Positions 5,117-63,488 of a stretch of 64,000 nt of DNA are shown here, piece after piece; position 1 is the first letter of the stretch, and each line of letters opens with the position of its first letter. Both the position numbers and the translations under genes were made by a program. The notes beneath the pieces were generated by a model. It was given only the letters and a program-made list of their open reading frames with translations. It was not told the DNA's origin and searched no databases. This DNA comes from Escherichia phage JoYop: the sequence record OR769032.1. The stretch is one strand, 5' to 3'.

Positions 5117-5187
5117 TTTCTAATCTCCGTAATTCTGTATCAGTAGTTGATAGTTGTATAGTACCACAGTATGCTTTGGTTGTAAAC
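5117..5187 (-). promoter_or_regulatory. early promoter plus conserved leader cassette upstream of motA
   Basis: Coding strand GTTTACA-17 bp-TACTAT followed by leader ACAACTATCAACT...GGAG...ATG; contains the 20-mer gttgatagttgtatagtacc (5146-5165). Confidence 0.6.
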
Positions 5188-7940: not shown

Positions 7941-8155
7941 TTTACACCATTCCAAATTGTTTCAACCACGGATTTTAAACCATTCTGATGAATATCCATT
8001 CCGACTACTGTCATCAAATAGATTCCAACTACAACTGAACCTAATGCAAAAATCAGCATGAAAATGAATAAAGCCGGAAAAATATTATCGAAAAACCATT
8101 CCATAAATGTAAAAGCACTGCGTTTACGTTTCATATTTTCCTCACATAAATCCAA
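7937..8155 (-). CDS. hypothetical membrane protein (72 aa)
   Basis: Track ORF with hydrophobic core ALFIFMLIFALGSVVVGIYLMTVV. Confidence 0.5.
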   Translation of the reverse strand: MDLCEENMKRKRSAFTFMEWFFDNIFPALFIFMLIFALGSVVVGIYLMTVVGMDIHQNGLKSVVETIWNGVK

Positions 8156-8255
8156 AGTAAGCGTTTAATACATCAATCATTAAAACGATTGGGAATATAC
8201 TCAAAACAACTAAAATTATAATTATATTCCATATAGCTTTAACAATCTTTTTCAT
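8142..8255 (-). CDS. tiny membrane peptide (37 aa)
   Basis: Track ORF 8142..8351 trimmed to the ATG after SD GGAGG (MKKIVKAIWNIIIILVVLSIFPIVLMIDVLNAYFGFM); the N-terminal extension in the track is translated promoter/leader. Confidence 0.45.
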   Translation of the reverse strand: MKKIVKAIWNIIIILVVLSIFPIVLMIDVLNAYFGFM

Positions 8256-8313
8256 TTTCTGTTCCTCCGTAGTTGATAGTTGTATAGTACCACAGAGGAA
8301 CAGTCTTGTAAAC
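8256..8313 (-). promoter_or_regulatory. early promoter plus leader cassette (type B copy 1)
   Basis: Coding strand GTTTACAAGACTGTTCCTCTGTGGTACTATACAACTATCAACTACGGAGGAACAGAAA-ATG; 61 bp identical to 61242..61302. Confidence 0.6.
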
Positions 8314-17495: not shown

Positions 17496-17539
17496 AGTTA
17501 TTTCTCACTTGTTAAAAAGATTTTATACTCCGCGGGACC

Positions 17540-17569
17540 ATTATACTCTGGTCCCAAGAGTTTGTAAAC
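17540..17569 (-). promoter_or_regulatory. early promoter (GTTTACA-17 bp-TATAAT)
   Basis: Coding strand GTTTACAAACTCTTGGGACCAGAGTATAATGGTCCC; inverted repeat GGGACC/GGTCCC flanks the -10. Confidence 0.55.
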
Positions 17570-18013: not shown

Positions 18014-18550
18014 TTAGTCTAAGGTAATAAAGCCTTTTAATTCAGCATGCGATTTGCGGAACATTACTTGGTGCCCACCAATGATAACTTCATCTTCAGG
18101 AACTTCGTATACAGCAAGATAAAATCCTTTAGAAGCTAATTCTTCACGCTCTTCTCGTGTGAACCATCTCATCATATCATATTCACTAGCGAAAGCAAAA
18201 TGATAAAGAGCTATAAACCATCCTGGAATATGATATTCTACTCCAACATAATCTTTCTTGAACTTAGTATTAATTACTATATTAGCGTTTTTAACTAGTA
18301 GTTTATCTTCGTGTGGTAAAGGAATTCTTTTATTATCGCTATGATGCATAAAATTAGGTCTGTCATAACCTACGTGTAATAGCCACTCTTCGCTCCATGA
18401 ATCTATTATACTCCTGTACGGCGTTATTTGAACACAAAGATTTCGACGTATTGTTATAGCATCTTCATAATCAAGAATACTAAATGATGATTCAACACGA
18501 TAAATTTTCATTTTATTATCCTCAGTAGCTATGGTGTTATAATACCACAA
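18014..18550 (-). CDS. hypothetical protein (178 aa)
   Basis: Track ORF upstream of the paralogue pair. Confidence 0.5.
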   Translation of the reverse strand: MWYYNTIATEDNKMKIYRVESSFSILDYEDAITIRRNLCVQITPYRSIIDSWSEEWLLHVGYDRPNFMHHSDNKRIPLPHEDKLLVKNANIVINTKFKKDYVGVEYHIPGWFIALYHFAFASEYDMMRWFTREEREELASKGFYLAVYEVPEDEVIIGGHQVMFRKSHAELKGFITLD

Positions 18551-18574
18551 CTAACCGAGGAAGTAAACAACTTT

Positions 18575-23101: not shown

Positions 23102-23733
23102 TCAACTACCTCAATATCATACACTTTAAATGTTCCAAATGAATCGTGTAATTTTTCTTTTGAAATAGAAGTTATTTTATACTTTCCAATTGGAACCATC
23201 CATTCTTGTTCATGTACAATCATCATTAAGTTATCAGTACGCTCTGAATCTAATCCATCAGTATCTTCATATGTATACTTGAACTCAGTATTTGGAGAAG
23301 AAAGTATAATATCGCTGATATGGTCAGAATAATTAAAAGCTTTATCAGTTTTTAAGCGAAATATTATTTCAGTAAAATATTCAGCATAAGAAAAAGAGCA
23401 TGCTGTATGCAAACTAGTAGTAAATGAATCTACCCTGTTCGTTGAAAACACTTCTCCAACTTGTAAATCTTTAATAAGTTCTTGTGTTGATTTTGATATA
23501 CCACGATATAATTGATAAGGCGATTTAGTTAAATGCTTTTTAACGATTTTATTCAACTGTCGATGAAGAGCTTCGTTCTTTTTGGCTTCCATACATTGCC
23601 AAAGAATTGACTGTTCAAAGTCAGTAAATTTTTCACAGACCTTTTTATACATATCATATTGAAAATCAACACTTTCAGCTTTTATAGATAACTGTTCAAC
23701 ATCTGCAAGATTAATAATCATGATAGCCTCCAT
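23098..23733 (-). CDS. modB: ADP-ribosyltransferase ModB
   Basis: 211 aa; adjacent to modA with ATGA overlap as in T4. Confidence 0.7.
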   Translation of the reverse strand: MEAIMIINLADVEQLSIKAESVDFQYDMYKKVCEKFTDFEQSILWQCMEAKKNEALHRQLNKIVKKHLTKSPYQLYRGISKSTQELIKDLQVGEVFSTNRVDSFTTSLHTACSFSYAEYFTEIIFRLKTDKAFNYSDHISDIILSSPNTEFKYTYEDTDGLDSERTDNLMMIVHEQEWMVPIGKYKITSISKEKLHDSFGTFKVYDIEVVE

Positions 23734-23788
23734 ATACTTCAGAAGCTATCATATCATTGTTAGAAAGTAAAGTAAACAACTTTTTGAA

Positions 23789-29576: not shown

Positions 29577-29830
29577 TATTTTATTTCCTCAAGTTCGTTA
29601 ATCAATAAAAGTTCTCTGACGCTAAAAACAAAGAAAAATGTGTTCCCATCAACCAGAGCATGACCGCTAATAGAACACCCTCTGCGGAATTTAGAAACTT
29701 CACAATCTAGAACTGTAAAGGGTTTTAATCCTATGACTTTAGCTGTGCGTCTATTCAGTTCACAACCACTCGCGAATTTTTCCAAATCTTCTTCTGATTT
29801 AAACTGATATTCTCTATTAACTAGCATCAT
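29576..29830 (-). CDS. hypothetical protein (84 aa)
   Basis: Track ORF with its own early promoter. Confidence 0.5.
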   Translation of the reverse strand: MMLVNREYQFKSEEDLEKFASGCELNRRTAKVIGLKPFTVLDCEVSKFRRGCSISGHALVDGNTFFFVFSVRELLLINELEEIK

Positions 29831-29861
29831 TTTCTTTTCTCCGCGATTAGCTGATAGAATT

Positions 29862-29891
29862 ACTATAACACAACTCTATCAGCTTGTAAAC
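29862..29891 (-). promoter_or_regulatory. early promoter
   Basis: Coding strand GTTTACAAGCTGATAGAGTTGTGTTATAGT. Confidence 0.45.
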
Positions 29892-30178: not shown

Positions 30179-30320
30179 TGAAAGCTTTAACTAGCGCTTT
30201 ATTAACTTCAGCATATTGAGTAGTAGCCCATTGAACATCATCTTTCATCATTGTGATTTCTTTAGTAAACATGCTTTCATTCTTAAACCACCCCATAAAA
30301 ACTACCTTTACCAATTCCAT
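30138..30320 (-). CDS. dmd: Dmd-like protein (60 aa), antitoxin against RnlA-type toxins
   Basis: 60 aa and immediately next to gene 41 as T4 dmd; own early promoter; assignment by position/size. Confidence 0.55.
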   Translation of the reverse strand: MELVKVVFMGWFKNESMFTKEITMMKDDVQWATTQYAEVNKALVKAFIDDKKVCEVDCRG

Positions 30321-30349
30321 AACAATCTCCTCATTTAACCAACAAGACT

Positions 30350-30379
30350 ACTATACCATAGTCTTGTCAGCTTGTAAAC
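30350..30379 (-). promoter_or_regulatory. early promoter upstream of dmd-like gene
   Basis: Coding strand GTTTACAAGCTGACAAGACTATGGTATAGT; -35 overlaps gene 41 stop. Confidence 0.5.
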
Positions 30380-35794: not shown

Positions 35795-36031
35795 TCAAAT
35801 GCAAGTAGTAATTACACCTGTAGTGCTCACACATGTATTCCCTAATTGAACACCTAAAGATCCGTTAGTATTCATATGAAGATTATCACCAATTTTAGTT
35901 GATACTTTCCCATTCATATGAATAATAACACTAGATTCAATAGGAGTCTGAATATCATTTTCAACATCAATAAATGGAATTGTTGCTAATGCAACTAAAC
36001 AAACTGCTAAGCAACCATAAACAATTTTCAT
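35795..36031 (-). CDS. small secreted protein (78 aa)
   Basis: Track ORF trimmed to the ATG after leader GGAGAACAAA (MKIVYGCLAVCLVALATIPF...); signal-peptide-like N-terminus. Confidence 0.5.
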   Translation of the reverse strand: MKIVYGCLAVCLVALATIPFIDVENDIQTPIESSVIIHMNGKVSTKIGDNLHMNTNGSLGVQLGNTCVSTTGVITTCI

Positions 36032-36095
36032 TTTGTTCTCCAAATCCGTATCAGTTGATAGTTGTATAGTACCATGGAAGAACAGTGATGTAAAC
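36032..36095 (-). promoter_or_regulatory. early promoter plus leader cassette (type A)
   Basis: Coding strand GTTTACATCACTGTTCTTCCATGGTACTATACAACTATCAACTGATACGGATTTGGAGAACAAA-ATG. Confidence 0.6.
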
Positions 36096-36183
36096 AGTTT
36101 TGTGAAAAAATTTTCAATGAATTCTAAAGACCCAGAATCATCTGTTTTTCACAAGTATAGATTTATATTACTTGTATGAAAAA

Positions 36184-36199
36184 GGGACCCGGAGGTCCC
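36184..36199 (-). terminator. terminator hairpin after gene 43 (GGGACC-UCCG-GGUCCC)
   Basis: Perfect 6-bp GC stem downstream of the gp43 stop. Confidence 0.5.
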
Positions 36200-36212
36200 T
36201 AGATTTATTCTA

Positions 36213-57280: not shown

Positions 57281-58282
57281 TTACTTAATTAACTGTAAAG
57301 CTTGTTCAAGACGATCAAGACGATTAACAGATTCTTCCCAAATCCTTTTAGCCTGTTCATATTCTTTCTGTGCTTTATTAGAAATTTCTAGAACTTCTTT
57401 ATAAGCTTTTTCTAGTGCAATAACTTCTGGACGAATTTCTACCGGTTCAGGTGAATCATCAAGACATTCTATTAGTTCCTCAAGAGTAGTTTCTTCTTTA
57501 GGAGTATTCACAATTTCCTCGCATTTTTGTTGATAAATTTCTTTATCAGTCGGTGAGTACGCGCATTTCACTTCACGAAGGCTAATTATAATTTTATATC
57601 CTTCCCAACCACATATATTTTTGAAAGGATACGTATGAATACTTTTTACAGTTTCCATACAGCCCAAAGCCGCCTCTAACTGATGGGTTATAGTACTAGC
57701 AATTGAGAAAAATTTATTAATATTCTTTTGGTTAACTTCCGGTGTAAAAAATCCATAATTCACAAAAATAGCTACTTTATTTTTATCAAGCTCATATTCT
57801 TTTACGATAATCATATCAGAAGCTAAAGGATGAATTTGACGATAATCACCATAACATAATTTAGAAGCTGATTTTAAAATTTGTCCTTTAAAAAGTCTGA
57901 AATTACTAATCCAACGACGAGTAAAAATATTCTCAGGGTCTTCTTTATTATTAAGATGATAAGAATTAACATCACCGAACCAATTATATCCTACTACATC
58001 TTTGGTTCGTTTAATTTCTTTCCCAAATTTACCAAAAATATCCCGATTAACCAAATATGAAAGAAGACGAGACCCTTTAAAGGTTTCCTTAATATCATCT
58101 TTATCTACACGGCTAGAAATTTTACAAACTTCATGAATAAATTTACTTGAAGAAACTATACTTGCATCAATACTATTGAGCCATTGATTGATAATAGAAA
58201 GAACACCGTGATGACTAGACATGGGTTTAACTTTATCATCAATAACGCTATTGAATGATTTGATATATTCGTTACGAGTCAT
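57281..58282 (-). CDS. hypothetical protein (334 aa) with C-terminal coiled coil; member B
   Basis: Track ORF 57281..58333 trimmed to the ATG after SD GAGGAGATT (MTRNEYIKSF...). Confidence 0.6.
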   Translation of the reverse strand: MTRNEYIKSFNSVIDDKVKPMSSHHGVLSIINQWLNSIDASIVSSSKFIHEVCKISSRVDKDDIKETFKGSRLLSYLVNRDIFGKFGKEIKRTKDVVGYNWFGDVNSYHLNNKEDPENIFTRRWISNFRLFKGQILKSASKLCYGDYRQIHPLASDMIIVKEYELDKNKVAIFVNYGFFTPEVNQKNINKFFSIASTITHQLEAALGCMETVKSIHTYPFKNICGWEGYKIIISLREVKCAYSPTDKEIYQQKCEEIVNTPKEETTLEELIECLDDSPEPVEIRPEVIALEKAYKEVLEISNKAQKEYEQAKRIWEESVNRLDRLEQALQLIK

Positions 58283-58310
58283 AATAATCTCCTCAGTAGA
58301 AAGTAAGAAC

Positions 58311-58340
58311 ATTATACCACATTCTTGTGGCAAAGTAAAC
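58311..58340 (-). promoter_or_regulatory. early promoter (GTTTAC ... TGTGGTATAAT) inside the tandem family
   Basis: Coding strand GTTTACTTTGCCACAAGAATGTGGTATAAT; -35 overlaps the stop of member C. Confidence 0.55.
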
Positions 58341-60716: not shown

Positions 60717-61244
60717 TTATGCGAGTACCGTCTTTAACCGTTCTTCAAACTTCCGAAGAGTATTTTGGCGTTCAGCTCTTTGCTTTTTGTAAGTTTCAAT
60801 ACGCTCTGAAATGAGAGTGTATCGTTCATTCACTGATTCTTTCATAAAATCAGGAATTTCACGAGAAGCTTTAATCTCGTCAAATTTATCAATAACAGCT
60901 TGCTCTTCAGCAATTAAGTTATCATACATTAAAATATCTTTCTTGATGAACTCAATATCTTCTTGAGTTACACGAGATAATTTAGATGCTTTATCCTTTT
61001 TGTACTGTTCGTTAGTATCACGAGACCAGTGTAATGTACGATTTTTATTCGTATTTTTGTAAATTTCTACAATACCAATCTCATCAATAATAACGATCCA
61101 ATTCCAACGGGATTTGTAAATCTGTCCTCCATCAACCGTAATTTCACCTCCGATTGAGATGTCATTAAAGAACTTGCTTTGTGCTTCTGACTTAAATTTA
61201 CCATCGTTGTAATTTACCAGGTTGAAAATATCTTTAGCATTCAT
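60717..61244 (-). CDS. hypothetical protein (175 aa)
   Basis: Track ORF 60717..61304 trimmed to the ATG after leader GGAGGAACAGAAA (MNAKDIFNLVNYNDG...). Confidence 0.55.
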   Translation of the reverse strand: MNAKDIFNLVNYNDGKFKSEAQSKFFNDISIGGEITVDGGQIYKSRWNWIVIIDEIGIVEIYKNTNKNRTLHWSRDTNEQYKKDKASKLSRVTQEDIEFIKKDILMYDNLIAEEQAVIDKFDEIKASREIPDFMKESVNERYTLISERIETYKKQRAERQNTLRKFEERLKTVLA

Positions 61245-61302
61245 TTTCTGTTCCTCCGTAGTTGATAGTTGTATAGTACCACAGAGGAACAGTCTTGTAA
61301 AC
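61242..61302 (-). promoter_or_regulatory. early promoter plus leader cassette (type B copy 2)
   Basis: 61 bp identical to 8253..8313. Confidence 0.6.
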
Positions 61303-62409: not shown

Positions 62410-63374
62410 TTTAATAATACCGTTTCAGCAATTTCTTCCCAATGGTTTTTGTCGGTCATAATAAAGTCAGCAAGATAAAGAGCAGTACGCAGTGAAACAT
62501 TGCGTAAACGATTAACATTAACTTTCATCCATGATAATGCTTTATAAGTTTCTTCATCAGAAAGACCACGTTTTTGCATCATGTCAGTTGAAAGAATAAC
62601 ATCTTCAACCCTGACCATAATTTCTTCATTAGTGTGAACACCTAAATCTAAATAAACTGAGCGGGACACTAATGCTTGTAAATGTGGAGCAAGTTTAGTT
62701 CCACGGTCTAATTCACGGTCAATGTCAACGTTTGTGATAAAAACAATCGTTCCTTTAAATTCAAACTCACGCTCAATGCCTTTTTCTTCTAAGTAAGAAG
62801 ATGCAGTGCTCCAGCAGACTTTACGGGTCTCTCCAGTGTCCAGAGCAGCTTTTAGAAGATTAAGAATGTCCATATCAGAGAAAACATCCACATCATCAAT
62901 TAAAAGGACAGAATTCTCTTCACGATTATTCCAGAGCTGCTCATAAAGACCGATACCAGAGATTTTACCATTAATGCTTTTATATTCAATGTATCCAACA
63001 TCATTTGCTTTATTTAAAGCTTTATCTAAAGAATACGTTTTACCAATACCTGCCGCACCAGAGATAATTAATGAACGAATGTTTCCGTTAATAATACCAT
63101 TCGTCATCATTCCCATAACATTAAATCTTTTATTAATGCGGGTTTTCATATCTTCATATGATTCTTTAACTTCTTCAACTTTTACACCATCATATGAAAT
63201 ATCTGATTTGTAAACCCAAACACCGCGACGCTTACCGTCAATTTCAACAAAAACTTTACCATCTCCTTGTGCATCTACCGGAGCATTATCTGGGAACCAT
63301 TCACCTAAGAGCTCAAAAGTTCCAGAGATTTCTTTACCGAAGTAGATACCCTTATTGATAGTTACAGTTTTCAT
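62406..63374 (-). CDS. P-loop NTPase (AAA+-like), 322 aa
   Basis: Track ORF trimmed to the ATG after leader GGAGAACAAA; Walker A GAAGIGKT, Walker B VLLIDDVD. Confidence 0.6.
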   Translation of the reverse strand: MKTVTINKGIYFGKEISGTFELLGEWFPDNAPVDAQGDGKVFVEIDGKRRGVWVYKSDISYDGVKVEEVKESYEDMKTRINKRFNVMGMMTNGIINGNIRSLIISGAAGIGKTYSLDKALNKANDVGYIEYKSINGKISGIGLYEQLWNNREENSVLLIDDVDVFSDMDILNLLKAALDTGETRKVCWSTASSYLEEKGIEREFEFKGTIVFITNVDIDRELDRGTKLAPHLQALVSRSVYLDLGVHTNEEIMVRVEDVILSTDMMQKRGLSDEETYKALSWMKVNVNRLRNVSLRTALYLADFIMTDKNHWEEIAETVLLK

Positions 63375-63468: not shown

Positions 63469-63488
63469 AGGGAGCCCGAAGGCTCCCT
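63469..63488 (-). terminator. terminator hairpin (AGGGAGCC-UUCG-GGCUCCCU) plus U-tract
   Basis: Perfect 8-bp stem with tetraloop followed on the - strand by a T-run. Confidence 0.55.

What the first reader, a model, noticed from the sequence alone, without database searches (positions are those of the whole stretch)
8259..8303. Perfect 9-bp inverted repeat joining the promoter spacer to the SD
In both type B copies (8259-8267/8295-8303 and 61248-61256/61284-61292) the spacer holds CTGTTCCTC and the leader holds its complement GAGGAACAG, which includes the SD. A transcript starting at this promoter would lack the left arm and leave the SD free; a read-through transcript from upstream would contain both arms and could sequester the SD. 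This resembles the initiation-region occlusion known for some T4 genes. The copy at 36032-36095 has an imperfect version (TGTTCTTCC/GGAGAACA) and the promoter at 17540-17569 has GGGACC/GGTCCC around its -10.
Basis: inference. Interest (0 to 1): 0.45.

Follow-up and report, generated by a model that had tools for sequence, protein, structure and literature searches.

The report
Early promoter that hides its gene's ribosome site
[quoted passage not shown] The design is conserved for the same genes across four phage genera.

Summary
On the transcribed (minus) strand both copies form a 15-bp RNA helix (13 Watson-Crick + 2 G·U, -23 kcal/mol, z about -5). Its 5' arm is the promoter spacer and its 3' arm holds the Shine-Dalgarno sequence (SD). 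Read-through RNA folds it with probability 0.99. RNA started at the local promoter lacks the 5' arm.

The window is a Tequatrovirus and the two copies precede ndd.4 and nrdC.8. The motB.2 and modB promoters in the window use the same design with unrelated sequences. T4 has all four, plus regB and denV.

Orthologs in RB69, JS98 and VR20 keep SD occlusion for the same genes, with different or compensated helices (T4 vs RB69: rho 0.80, p=2e-4). G·U pairs make the sense strand 6-10 kcal/mol more stable than the antisense, which points to selection on RNA.

Best reading: own-promoter-only translation. It resembles T4 e/soc/49/I-TevI occlusion, but with early rather than late promoters, inside PeSL promoter cassettes.

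No experiment was possible. The imperfect copy at 36095 is not significantly structured. The example at 17569 is a different hairpin around the -10.

The parts
8251..8313 (-). Cassette copy 1 (ndd.4 early promoter plus leader). A 63-nt block identical to copy 2, running from the -35 to ATG+2.
   Evidence: lies between ndd.5 and ndd.4 by homology to RB14 and T4
8307..8312 (-). -35 hexamer TTTACA, within the T4 early motif GTTTACA
8289..8303 (-). 5' arm CUGUUCCUCUGUGGU (the anti-SD). It lies in the promoter spacer and its last base is the first base of the -10. It is absent from locally initiated RNA.
8284..8289 (-). -10 hexamer TACTAT with an extended TG. It sits in the 15-nt loop together with the predicted start site at about 8277.
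   Evidence: the start site is inferred from the usual sigma-70 spacing
8259..8273 (-). 3' arm ACUACGGAGGAACAG, containing the SD GGAGG (8264-8268)
8142..8255 (-). ndd.4 ORF (37 aa, predicted membrane protein). ATG at 8253-8255.
61240..61302 (-). Cassette copy 2 (nrdC.8 early promoter plus leader). -35 at 61296-61301, 5' arm 61278-61292, -10 at 61273-61278, 3' arm 61248-61262, SD 61253-61257.
60717..61244 (-). nrdC.8 ORF (175 aa)
18509..18568 (-). motB.2 early promoter cassette with the same architecture but an unrelated sequence. 5' arm 18544-18561 (UCCUCGGU.AGUUGUGGU), 3' arm 18519-18535 (ACCAUAGCUACUGAGGA). -23.7 kcal/mol, z = -5.5.
23719..23777 (-). modB early promoter cassette. The 5' arm 23741-23753 is the -10 TATGAT plus the discriminator. 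The 3' arm 23719-23731 covers the SD and the AUG. -15.4 kcal/mol, z = -3.6.
36029..36095 (-). Weak relative of the cassette, at the imm.1 position. The pairing UGUUCU(U)CC/GGAGAACA is imperfect and not significant. A canonical intrinsic terminator precedes it at about 36179-36200.

Best explanation
This is a promoter-embedded anti-Shine-Dalgarno element that should gate translation by where the transcript starts. The spacer of a sigma-70-type T4 early promoter (or, in modB, its -10 and discriminator) is complementary to the SD region of the gene 20-30 nt downstream.

RNA polymerase that starts at this promoter begins after the 5' arm. That mRNA has a free ribosome-binding site and is translated. 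Polymerase arriving from an upstream early or middle promoter transcribes both arms. The nascent RNA then closes a 10-18 bp helix (15 bp and -23 kcal/mol here) over the SD, so that cistron is translationally silent on read-through RNA.

T4 early promoters are shut off 2-3 min after infection. The expected net effect is that the protein is made only in the immediate-early burst, whatever transcription later crosses the gene. The helix probably also shields the GGAG from RegB cleavage on the long RNAs.

Shown here: the sequence, the promoter geometry, the thermodynamics, the sense-strand asymmetry, and conservation with compensation across genera. Inferred: the start-site position, the existence and amount of read-through RNA at these sites, the actual block of translation, and the selective purpose.
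For: Thermodynamics. A 15-bp helix, -23.2 kcal/mol, z = -5.1 and -5.6. Helix probability is 0.99 and P(SD free) = 0.000 in every read-through context tested. Local RNA is open whatever the exact start site.

Specificity within the window. The extra cost of opening the ribosome-binding site in long versus short RNA is 18.8 (ndd.4), 15.5 (nrdC.8), 12.5 (motB.2) and 10.0 (modB) kcal/mol. The other 16 early promoters are at or below 4.9. Only 6 of 378 non-cognate promoter/leader chimeras reach 10, and those come from spacers that also carry anti-SD strings.

Conservation. T4 has the same four, plus regB (17.5) and denV (10.1).

Different helices for the same gene:
- motB.2 has three unrelated helix sequences in Tequatrovirus, JS98 and RB69.
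- nrdC.8 uses CUGUUCCUCUGUGGU/ACUACGGAGGAACAG in the window and AUCUCCAGUAG/CUACUGGAGGU in JS98.
- ndd.4 in VR20 uses AUCUCCGGUGGUUG/CAACUACUGGAGAU.
- regB differs between T4 and RB69 at three pairs changed on both sides.
- modB in RB69 has a compensated G/U insertion.

Statistics. Across 16 orthologous promoter-gene pairs, T4 vs RB69 gives Spearman rho 0.80 (p = 2e-4) and Fisher p = 0.036. In the B-type alignment, column pair 13-45 is U-A x7, A-U x5, G-U x2 and never unpaired; 0 of 500 shuffles reach the covariation score.

Strand asymmetry. Seventeen representative helices contain 30 G·U pairs and no A·C mismatch. Sense folds are 6-10 kcal/mol more stable than antisense in the Tequatrovirus cases, and the SD is 4/4 paired in all 17.

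Context. The upstream stop codon lies 5-21 nt before the -35 (5-12 nt for three of the four cassettes), and there is no terminator between the upstream promoter and either cassette copy.

Literature.
- Early transcripts routinely extend into downstream genes (PMC2988021).
- The regB promoter shuts off at 2-3 min, and regB is described as tightly regulated (PMC3014915).
- Hairpin occlusion cuts T4 lysozyme synthesis about 100-fold.
- modB RNA is noted to form a stable structure over its GGAG (PMC1702504).
Against: - There is no experimental evidence here for start sites, read-through levels, RNA structure or translation at these loci.
- Within the closely related ndd.4/nrdC.8 family, variation is low. 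There are only three one-sided pair-preserving changes and no change on both sides, and the two basal pairs break in some phages.
- Conservation is not universal. RB69 nrdC.8 has only a hairpin around the -10 (extra cost 4.0), and e.8 and 55.6 switch class between T4 and RB69.
- Several other early promoters carry equally stable embedded hairpins that do not touch the SD: dmd, motB and the one at 29891. Some more general function of promoter-embedded hairpins may be primary, with SD coverage partly a matter of geometry, because the leader is only about 22 nt long.
- The metric threshold and the ortholog pairing were chosen by me.
- Durand et al. suggest that RegB can act on nascent modB RNA before the structure forms, so kinetics may matter.
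Confidence: 0.6

Rival explanations
1. It is an ordinary PeSL stem-loop. In this reading the hairpin's selected role is the one proposed for PeSLs: attenuating, pausing or terminating transcription from upstream, or stabilising the 3' end of upstream mRNA. Overlap with the SD would be incidental, a result of the short leader.
For: - PeSL cassettes (early promoter, stem-loop, SD, ATG) are described in T4/PST, and the ndd.4/.5 locus is used as an example (PMC4122927).
- Stem-loops are reported at variable positions relative to the promoter, and one RB49 stem-loop lowered downstream lacZ expression like a strong terminator (PMC2839356).
- In the window, three or four other early promoters have significant embedded hairpins that leave the SD free.
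Against: - No U-tract follows any of these helices; the sequence after the helix is AAAAUG. The terminator scan finds none at either copy.
- The same genes keep SD coverage across four genera although the helix sequence is replaced. A position-indifferent terminator would not be expected to do this.
- Whatever else the helix does, a -23 kcal/mol helix over the SD must impede 30S binding. This follows from established principle and from the T4 gene e precedent.
Confidence: 0.2
2. It is a shield against RegB or other RNases. In this reading the helix exists mainly to hide the intercistronic GGAG of long polycistronic RNAs from RegB cleavage and the decay that follows. That would keep distal genes expressed. 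Translational silencing of the proximal cistron would be a side effect.
For: - RegB cuts GGAG in the SDs of early mRNAs, and RNA secondary structure protects against it.
- Sixteen RegB-resistant T4 RNAs have the GGAG inside stable structures, modB RNA is resistant in vitro, and the denV SD is resistant in vivo (PMC3014915 and PMC1702504).
- All the helices found here cover a GGAG or GAGG.
Against: - The ndd.4/nrdC.8 SD context GGAGGAACAGA fits the RegB consensus GGAGRAYARAA poorly (my comparison).
- regB mutants are viable with only a mild phenotype, so selection for this role would be weak.
- This reading does not exclude the main explanation; both effects follow from the same helix.
Confidence: 0.1
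3. It is a DNA-level element. The inverted repeat would act as a cruciform, a recombination hot spot or a protein-binding palindrome that promotes cassette exchange, with no role for RNA.
For: - The 63-nt block is duplicated exactly from the -35 to ATG+2 at loci 53 kb apart.
- The loop variants ACAACT and TACCCT occur at both loci in different phages, which suggests exchange between them.
- PeSL mini-circles arise by recombination between cassettes.
Against: - Helix extension depends on G·U pairs that exist only on the sense strand. With DNA parameters the sense strand folds at -11 kcal/mol (z = -4.0) and the complementary strand at -6.9 (z = -1.6).
- There are 30 G·U pairs and no A·C mismatch in 17 helices.
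- Helix sequences differ between genes and genera, so no common protein site exists.
- Recombination needs only the repeated cassette, not an internal inverted repeat.
Confidence: 0.05
4. It is a chance inverted repeat that was copied when the promoter cassette duplicated.
For: About 21 perfect 9-bp repeat seeds with a 3-40 nt loop are expected by chance in 64 kb, and the two copies are not independent.
Against: - The RNA helix is 15 bp with z about -5.
- Three independent sequence solutions exist in the same window.
- The helix is conserved and compensated across four genera.
Confidence: 0.03

Closest known systems
T4 hairpins that occlude the translation initiation region and contain an internal promoter: genes e (lysozyme), soc, 49 and I-TevI; also I-TevII/III, Aeh1 mobE and segB
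   Same: The SD and/or AUG is sequestered in a helix whose 5' strand lies upstream of a promoter-proximal start site. Long transcripts are silent and promoter-proximal transcripts are translated (PMC3014915 section 29).
   Different: In every listed case the internal promoter is a late (gp55, TATAAATA) promoter, and the effect is to delay translation until late. Here the internal promoter is an early sigma-70 promoter, the anti-SD is the promoter spacer itself (or the -10), and the predicted effect is the reverse: translation confined to the first minutes. The gene set (ndd.4, nrdC.8, motB.2, modB, regB, denV) is not on that list.
PeSL (promoter-early stem-loop) cassettes of T4-like phages (Arbiol et al. 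2010; Comeau et al. 2014)
   Same: A repeated cassette of roughly 60-100 bp made of an AT-rich upstream region, an early promoter, a stem-loop, an SD and an ATG. It lies between small ORFs in hyperplastic regions. The ndd.4/.5 locus is itself a published example, and cassettes recombine with each other.
   Different: The PeSL papers treat the stem-loop as a terminator/attenuator and the SD as a separate element. Neither paper contains the words translation or ribosome. For PST/T4 the stems are drawn just upstream of the promoter. Here the stem joins the spacer to the SD, has no U-tract, and its SD coverage is conserved gene by gene.
Protection of IS10/Tn10 and IS50 transposase genes from outside transcription ('fold-back inhibition'). 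Recalled from memory (Davis, Simons and Kleckner 1985; Schulz and Reznikoff 1991) and not checked here.
   Same: Transcripts entering from external promoters include a segment upstream of the element's own start site. That segment pairs with the ribosome-binding site, so only self-initiated mRNA is translated. The logic of insulating a mobile module is the same.
   Different: Those are transposons, not phage early genes. The sequences are unrelated, and the comparison rests on memory.
RegB/S1 inactivation of T4 early mRNAs at GGAG Shine-Dalgarno sequences
   Same: It targets the same SD motifs, serves the same goal of ending early protein synthesis, and is blocked by RNA structure.
   Different: RegB is a trans-acting nuclease. 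The element here is a cis-acting RNA fold that depends on where the transcript starts.

Membership tests
PeSL cassette | Strong sigma-70-like early promoter (T4 type TTTACW-N17-TAYWAT) with an AT-rich upstream region | tested here: met
   GTTTACA-17-TGgTACTAT, preceded by TTTTTAAAAAGTG. Promoter activity itself was not assayed.
PeSL cassette | Stable stem-loop associated with the promoter | tested here: met
   15-bp helix, z about -5. Its position (spacer to SD) is not among the five positions listed in PMC2839356.
PeSL cassette | SD and start codon of a downstream small ORF at the 3' end; intergenic location in a hyperplastic region; repeated in the genome | tested here: met
   The ndd and nrdC ORF clusters. 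Six cassettes in the window share the core GGTACTATACAACTATCAAC, and two are identical over 63 nt.
PeSL cassette | The stem-loop acts as a transcription terminator or attenuator | tested here: inconclusive
   No U-tract, and no terminator-like hit at either copy. Pausing or attenuation cannot be tested in silico.
PeSL cassette | Mediates recombination or module exchange | tested here: inconclusive
   Exact duplication bounded by the -35 and ATG+2, and loop-variant mosaics between the two loci across phages.
T4 promoter-in-hairpin occlusion of the translation initiation region (e/soc/49/I-TevI class) | SD and/or AUG base-paired in transcripts initiated upstream | tested here: met
   Predicted only: P(helix) 0.99 and P(SD free) 0.000. 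The SD is 4/4 paired in 17 representative helices.
T4 promoter-in-hairpin occlusion of the translation initiation region (e/soc/49/I-TevI class) | A promoter placed so that its transcripts lack the 5' strand of the helix | tested here: met
   The 5' arm ends at the first base of the -10. The start site is inferred, not mapped.
T4 promoter-in-hairpin occlusion of the translation initiation region (e/soc/49/I-TevI class) | The internal promoter is a late (gp55) promoter, giving late-only translation | tested here: not met
   The promoter is of the early sigma-70 type with a -35 element and no TATAAATA. It works like this class but is not a member as the class is currently defined.
T4 promoter-in-hairpin occlusion of the translation initiation region (e/soc/49/I-TevI class) | Demonstrated difference in translation between long and short transcripts | not testable with these tools
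   Needs reporter fusions, toeprinting or structure probing.
Curated RNA families (Rfam 15) | Match to any covariance model at the gathering threshold | tested here: not met
   No hits in the whole window.

The most novel reading that the evidence does not exclude
T4-type phages have a conserved and so far undescribed class of early genes: regB, modB, denV, motB.2, nrdC.8 and ndd.4. In each, the early promoter doubles as an anti-Shine-Dalgarno sequence. Only mRNA started at the gene's own promoter is translated, and every read-through transcript is silent for that cistron. Together with early-promoter shut-off and RegB, this would be a third, cis-encoded mechanism that confines potent early enzymes to the first 2-3 minutes. 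It would also insulate mobile PeSL gene cassettes from their transcriptional surroundings.
Probability: 0.45. Interest if true: 0.65.

Novelty: new variant of a known kind. Interest (0 to 1): 0.55.

Why it matters
T4 is the reference system for timed phage gene expression, yet the sharp stop of immediate-early protein synthesis is only partly explained by promoter shut-off and RegB.

A cis-encoded rule that only the gene's own promoter yields translatable mRNA would explain two things. It would show how an RNase (RegB) and an ADP-ribosyltransferase (ModB) are kept to a brief pulse even though later transcripts cross their genes. It would also show how cassette-borne ORFs can be shuffled between genomes without their dosage depending on the new neighbourhood.

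The idea reinterprets part of the PeSL stem-loops as translational rather than transcriptional devices. It also suggests a compact, portable design for synthetic biology: a promoter whose spacer insulates its gene from read-through.

The hypothesis can be tested directly with a handful of reporter constructs or T4 point mutants.

Tried and rejected
- Rfam scan of the whole window: no family matched.
- Intrinsic-terminator reading: no U-tract and no terminator-like site at either copy.
- Classical covariation within the ndd.4/nrdC.8 helix type: too little divergence, with only one-sided changes. The case rests instead on different helices at orthologous genes and on the B-type alignment.
- Association between the absence of an upstream terminator and SD occlusion: a trend only, 1/16 versus 18/75, and the orthologs are not independent.
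The viral-contig scans and protein-anchored loci supplied the useful sequences.
- The copy at 36095 as a third instance: rejected, because it is not significantly structured.
- Older T4 literature could not be opened. This includes Miller et al. 2003 MMBR, Piesiniene et al. 2004, Tiemann et al. 2004 and the 1994 T4 book. An earlier description of individual cases, for example regB or modB, therefore cannot be excluded.
- Full-text searches found no description of early promoters embedded in SD-occluding hairpins.

Full report
**What the window is.** The region 7000-10000 matches Tequatrovirus (T4-like) phages at 94-96% identity and covers denB, ndd, ac and rIIB. The genes run on the minus strand. 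By homology to RB14 and T4, the cassette at 8251-8313 lies between ndd.5 and ndd.4. The second copy, at 61240-61302, precedes nrdC.8.

**The observation.** Read on the minus strand, the cassette is GTTTACAAGA[CTGTTCCTC]TGTGGTACTATACAACTATCAACTACG[GAGGAACAG]AAAATG. It is a T4-type early promoter: -35 TTTACA, a 17-nt spacer and an extended -10, TGgTACTAT. A 22-nt leader, GGAGG and the ATG follow.

- The two copies are identical over exactly 63 nt, from the -35 to ATG+2, and their flanks are unrelated.
- A bare 9-bp inverted repeat with a 3-40 nt loop is not rare. About 21 seeds are expected by chance and 60 are observed in the window. The repeat alone, duplicated once, proves little.

**The helix is longer than reported.** Folded as RNA, the helix is 15 bp: CUGUUCCUCUGUGGU/ACUACGGAGGAACAG, with 13 Watson-Crick and 2 G·U pairs. 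Its 15-nt loop contains the -10 and the predicted start site. The energy is -23.2 kcal/mol, z = -5.1 and -5.6, and none of 200 dinucleotide shuffles folds as well.

- With 0-400 nt of upstream and 25-150 nt of downstream context, the helix has probability about 0.99 and the SD is never free.
- RNA starting anywhere from the -10 to 10 nt beyond it lacks the 5' arm and leaves the SD largely accessible.
- The extra free energy needed to open ATG-14..ATG+3 in long versus short RNA is 18.8 kcal/mol for ndd.4 and 15.5 for nrdC.8.

**Read-through is expected.** The upstream gene's stop codon lies 5-21 nt before the -35 (5-12 nt for three of the four cassettes). No terminator-like site lies between the next upstream early promoter (8800 or 63438) and either cassette. 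Early T4 transcripts are known to extend into downstream genes (PMC2988021).

**It is not unique in the window.** I applied the same measure to all 20 GTTTAC-N17/18-TAnnnT promoters on the minus strand.

- Two further promoters stand out, with unrelated sequences. The first is motB.2 at 18568: UCCUCGGU.AGUUGUGGU/ACCAUAGCUACUGAGGA, -23.7 kcal/mol, z = -5.5, extra cost 12.5. The second is modB at 23777: its -10 plus discriminator pairs with the SD and AUG, z = -3.6, extra cost 10.0.
- The other 16 promoters are at or below 4.9.
- Swapping promoter halves among cassettes gives values of 10 or more in 6 of 378 chimeras, and those come from spacers that also carry anti-SD strings.
It sits just after a canonical terminator.
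Its roughly 13-bp hairpin brackets the -10 and covers a leader GGAG, but not motB's SD.

**Comparative evidence.**

- T4 itself has the same four cassettes, with extra costs of 14.0, 15.3, 12.4 and 12.8, plus regB at 17.5 (UUUUCCUCUUGACUG/CAGUUAAGAGGAGAA) and denV at 10.1.
- RB69 (Mosigvirus): motB.2 18.8 (UUCUCCUCUGGUU/AACCAGAGGAGAA); modB 13.4, with a G inserted in one arm paired to a U inserted in the other; regB 14.9 (UUCUCCUCUAGUUG/CAACUAGAGGAGAA, three pairs changed on both sides relative to T4); denV 8.0 (UUCCUCCAAG/CUUGGAGGAA).
- JS98 (Dhakavirus): motB.2 UUCUCCUCAUG/CAUGAGGAGAA, nrdC.8 AUCUCCAGUAG/CUACUGGAGGU, and regB and denV AUCUCCUGUAG/CUACAGGAGAU.
- VR20 (Gaprivervirus): an annotated Ndd.4 homolog uses AUCUCCGGUGGUUG/CAACUACUGGAGAU.
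- In the B-type alignment, column pair 13-45 is U-A x7, A-U x5 and G-U x2, and is never unpaired. None of 500 shuffles reaches the covariation score.
- Across 16 orthologous promoter-gene pairs, the T4 and RB69 values correlate (Spearman 0.80, p = 2e-4). Four genes are SD-occluding in both, against 1.9 expected (Fisher p = 0.036).
- Exceptions exist. RB69 nrdC.8 has only a hairpin around the -10 (4.0), and e.8 and 55.6 switch class.
- Within the closely related ndd.4/nrdC.8 type there are only one-sided, pair-preserving changes, plus breaks at the two basal pairs.

**RNA or DNA?** The helices contain 30 G·U pairs and no A·C mismatch. Sense-strand folds are 6-10 kcal/mol more stable than antisense for the Tequatrovirus examples. 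With DNA parameters the sense strand folds at -11 kcal/mol (z = -4.0) and the complementary strand at -6.9 (z = -1.6). This asymmetry points to selection on the sense transcript, not on a cruciform or a protein-binding palindrome.

**Mechanism.**

- Established principle, and the T4 gene e precedent of about 100-fold (PMC3014915), say that a -15 to -24 kcal/mol helix over the SD blocks 30S binding. The physical consequence follows: read-through RNA is translationally silent for that cistron, while locally started RNA is competent.
- T4 early promoters are switched off at 2-3 min, and regB is described as tightly regulated. The predicted outcome is synthesis only in the immediate-early period.
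- ModB and RegB are indeed classed as early proteins by proteomics (PMC9697503). This is consistent with the prediction but not decisive.
- RNA structure also protects GGAG from RegB. modB RNA was noted to be structured and resistant in vitro, and denV's SD is resistant in vivo. The same helix may therefore shield long RNAs from RegB.

**Relation to known systems.**

- The cassette is a PeSL in the sense of Arbiol 2010 and Comeau 2014, and the ndd.4/.5 locus is one of their examples.
- Those papers interpret the stems as terminators and never mention translation. There is also no U-tract here.
- The logic is that of T4 e/soc/49/I-TevI, but every listed case has a late promoter. The late-promoter feature is not met here, so this works like that class without belonging to it.
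- From memory, IS10 and IS50 protect themselves against outside transcription by the same logic.
- No Rfam family matches.
- I found no earlier description in the searchable library, but key older T4 papers could not be opened.

**Verdict.** It remains untested by experiment.

Noticed in passing
window 30318-30379, 29828-29891, 17527-17561, 58280-58340 (minus strand): Other early promoters carry equally stable hairpins embedded in the promoter that do not cover the SD. These are dmd (15 bp, z = -4.0), the promoter at 29891 (14 bp, z = -4.3), motB (z = -3.2) and nrdC.4 (z = -2.5). Their 5' arm also lies upstream of the start site, and none is followed by a U-tract. Their function is unexplained; they match the classical PeSL description.
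   Followed up: partly
window 63438, 61302, 36095, 8800, 8313, 5187 (positions of the -35 GTTTAC, minus strand): Six early promoters share the -10/leader core GGTACTATACAACTATCAAC but have different spacers. Four of them also share the upstream string TTTCACAAAAC and the leader GATACGGATTTGGAGAA. The ndd.4 and nrdC.8 copies are identical over exactly 63 nt, bounded by the -35 and ATG+2. The loop variants ACAACT and TACCCT occur at both loci in different phages, which suggests repeated gene conversion between cassettes 53 kb apart.
   Followed up: partly
window 63469-63488, about 36179-36200, and within 150 nt upstream of the promoters at 5187, 25879, 50370 and 29891: Canonical intrinsic terminators, several with UUCG-type tetraloops, sit directly upstream of early promoters that lack an SD-occluding helix. 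Only 1 of 16 SD-occluding promoters (window, T4 and RB69 combined) has such a terminator, against 18 of 75 others. This is a weak trend that fits the idea of two alternative ways to insulate a gene.
   Followed up: partly
window 17527-17569 (motB promoter and leader): The 3' arm of the motB promoter hairpin contains the leader GGAG (CCCGCGGAGU), at the position expected for the RegB cleavage site reported for motB mRNA. It would be base-paired only in read-through RNA.
   Followed up: no
window 35795-36031 (minus strand): The ORF behind the cassette at 36095 (MKIVYGCLAV..., 78 aa, with a hydrophobic, signal-peptide-like N-terminus by eye) differs from T4 imm.1 (MKIAILVIAL...) at the same position. 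This looks like an ORF replacement next to a PeSL cassette.
   Followed up: no
whole window: Perfect 9-bp inverted repeats with 3-40 nt loops are about three times more frequent than in Markov-1 random sequence (60 seeds against 21 +/- 7). Terminators and promoter-embedded hairpins account for some of them.
   Followed up: partly
outside the window: T4 NC_000866 about 62740-62800 (regB) and 65355-65415 (denV); loci L291, L289: The regB and denV early promoters of T4, RB69 and JS98 are SD-occluding cassettes of the same kind. For regB this would add a second layer of control to the known cleavage of its own SD by RegB.
   Followed up: yes
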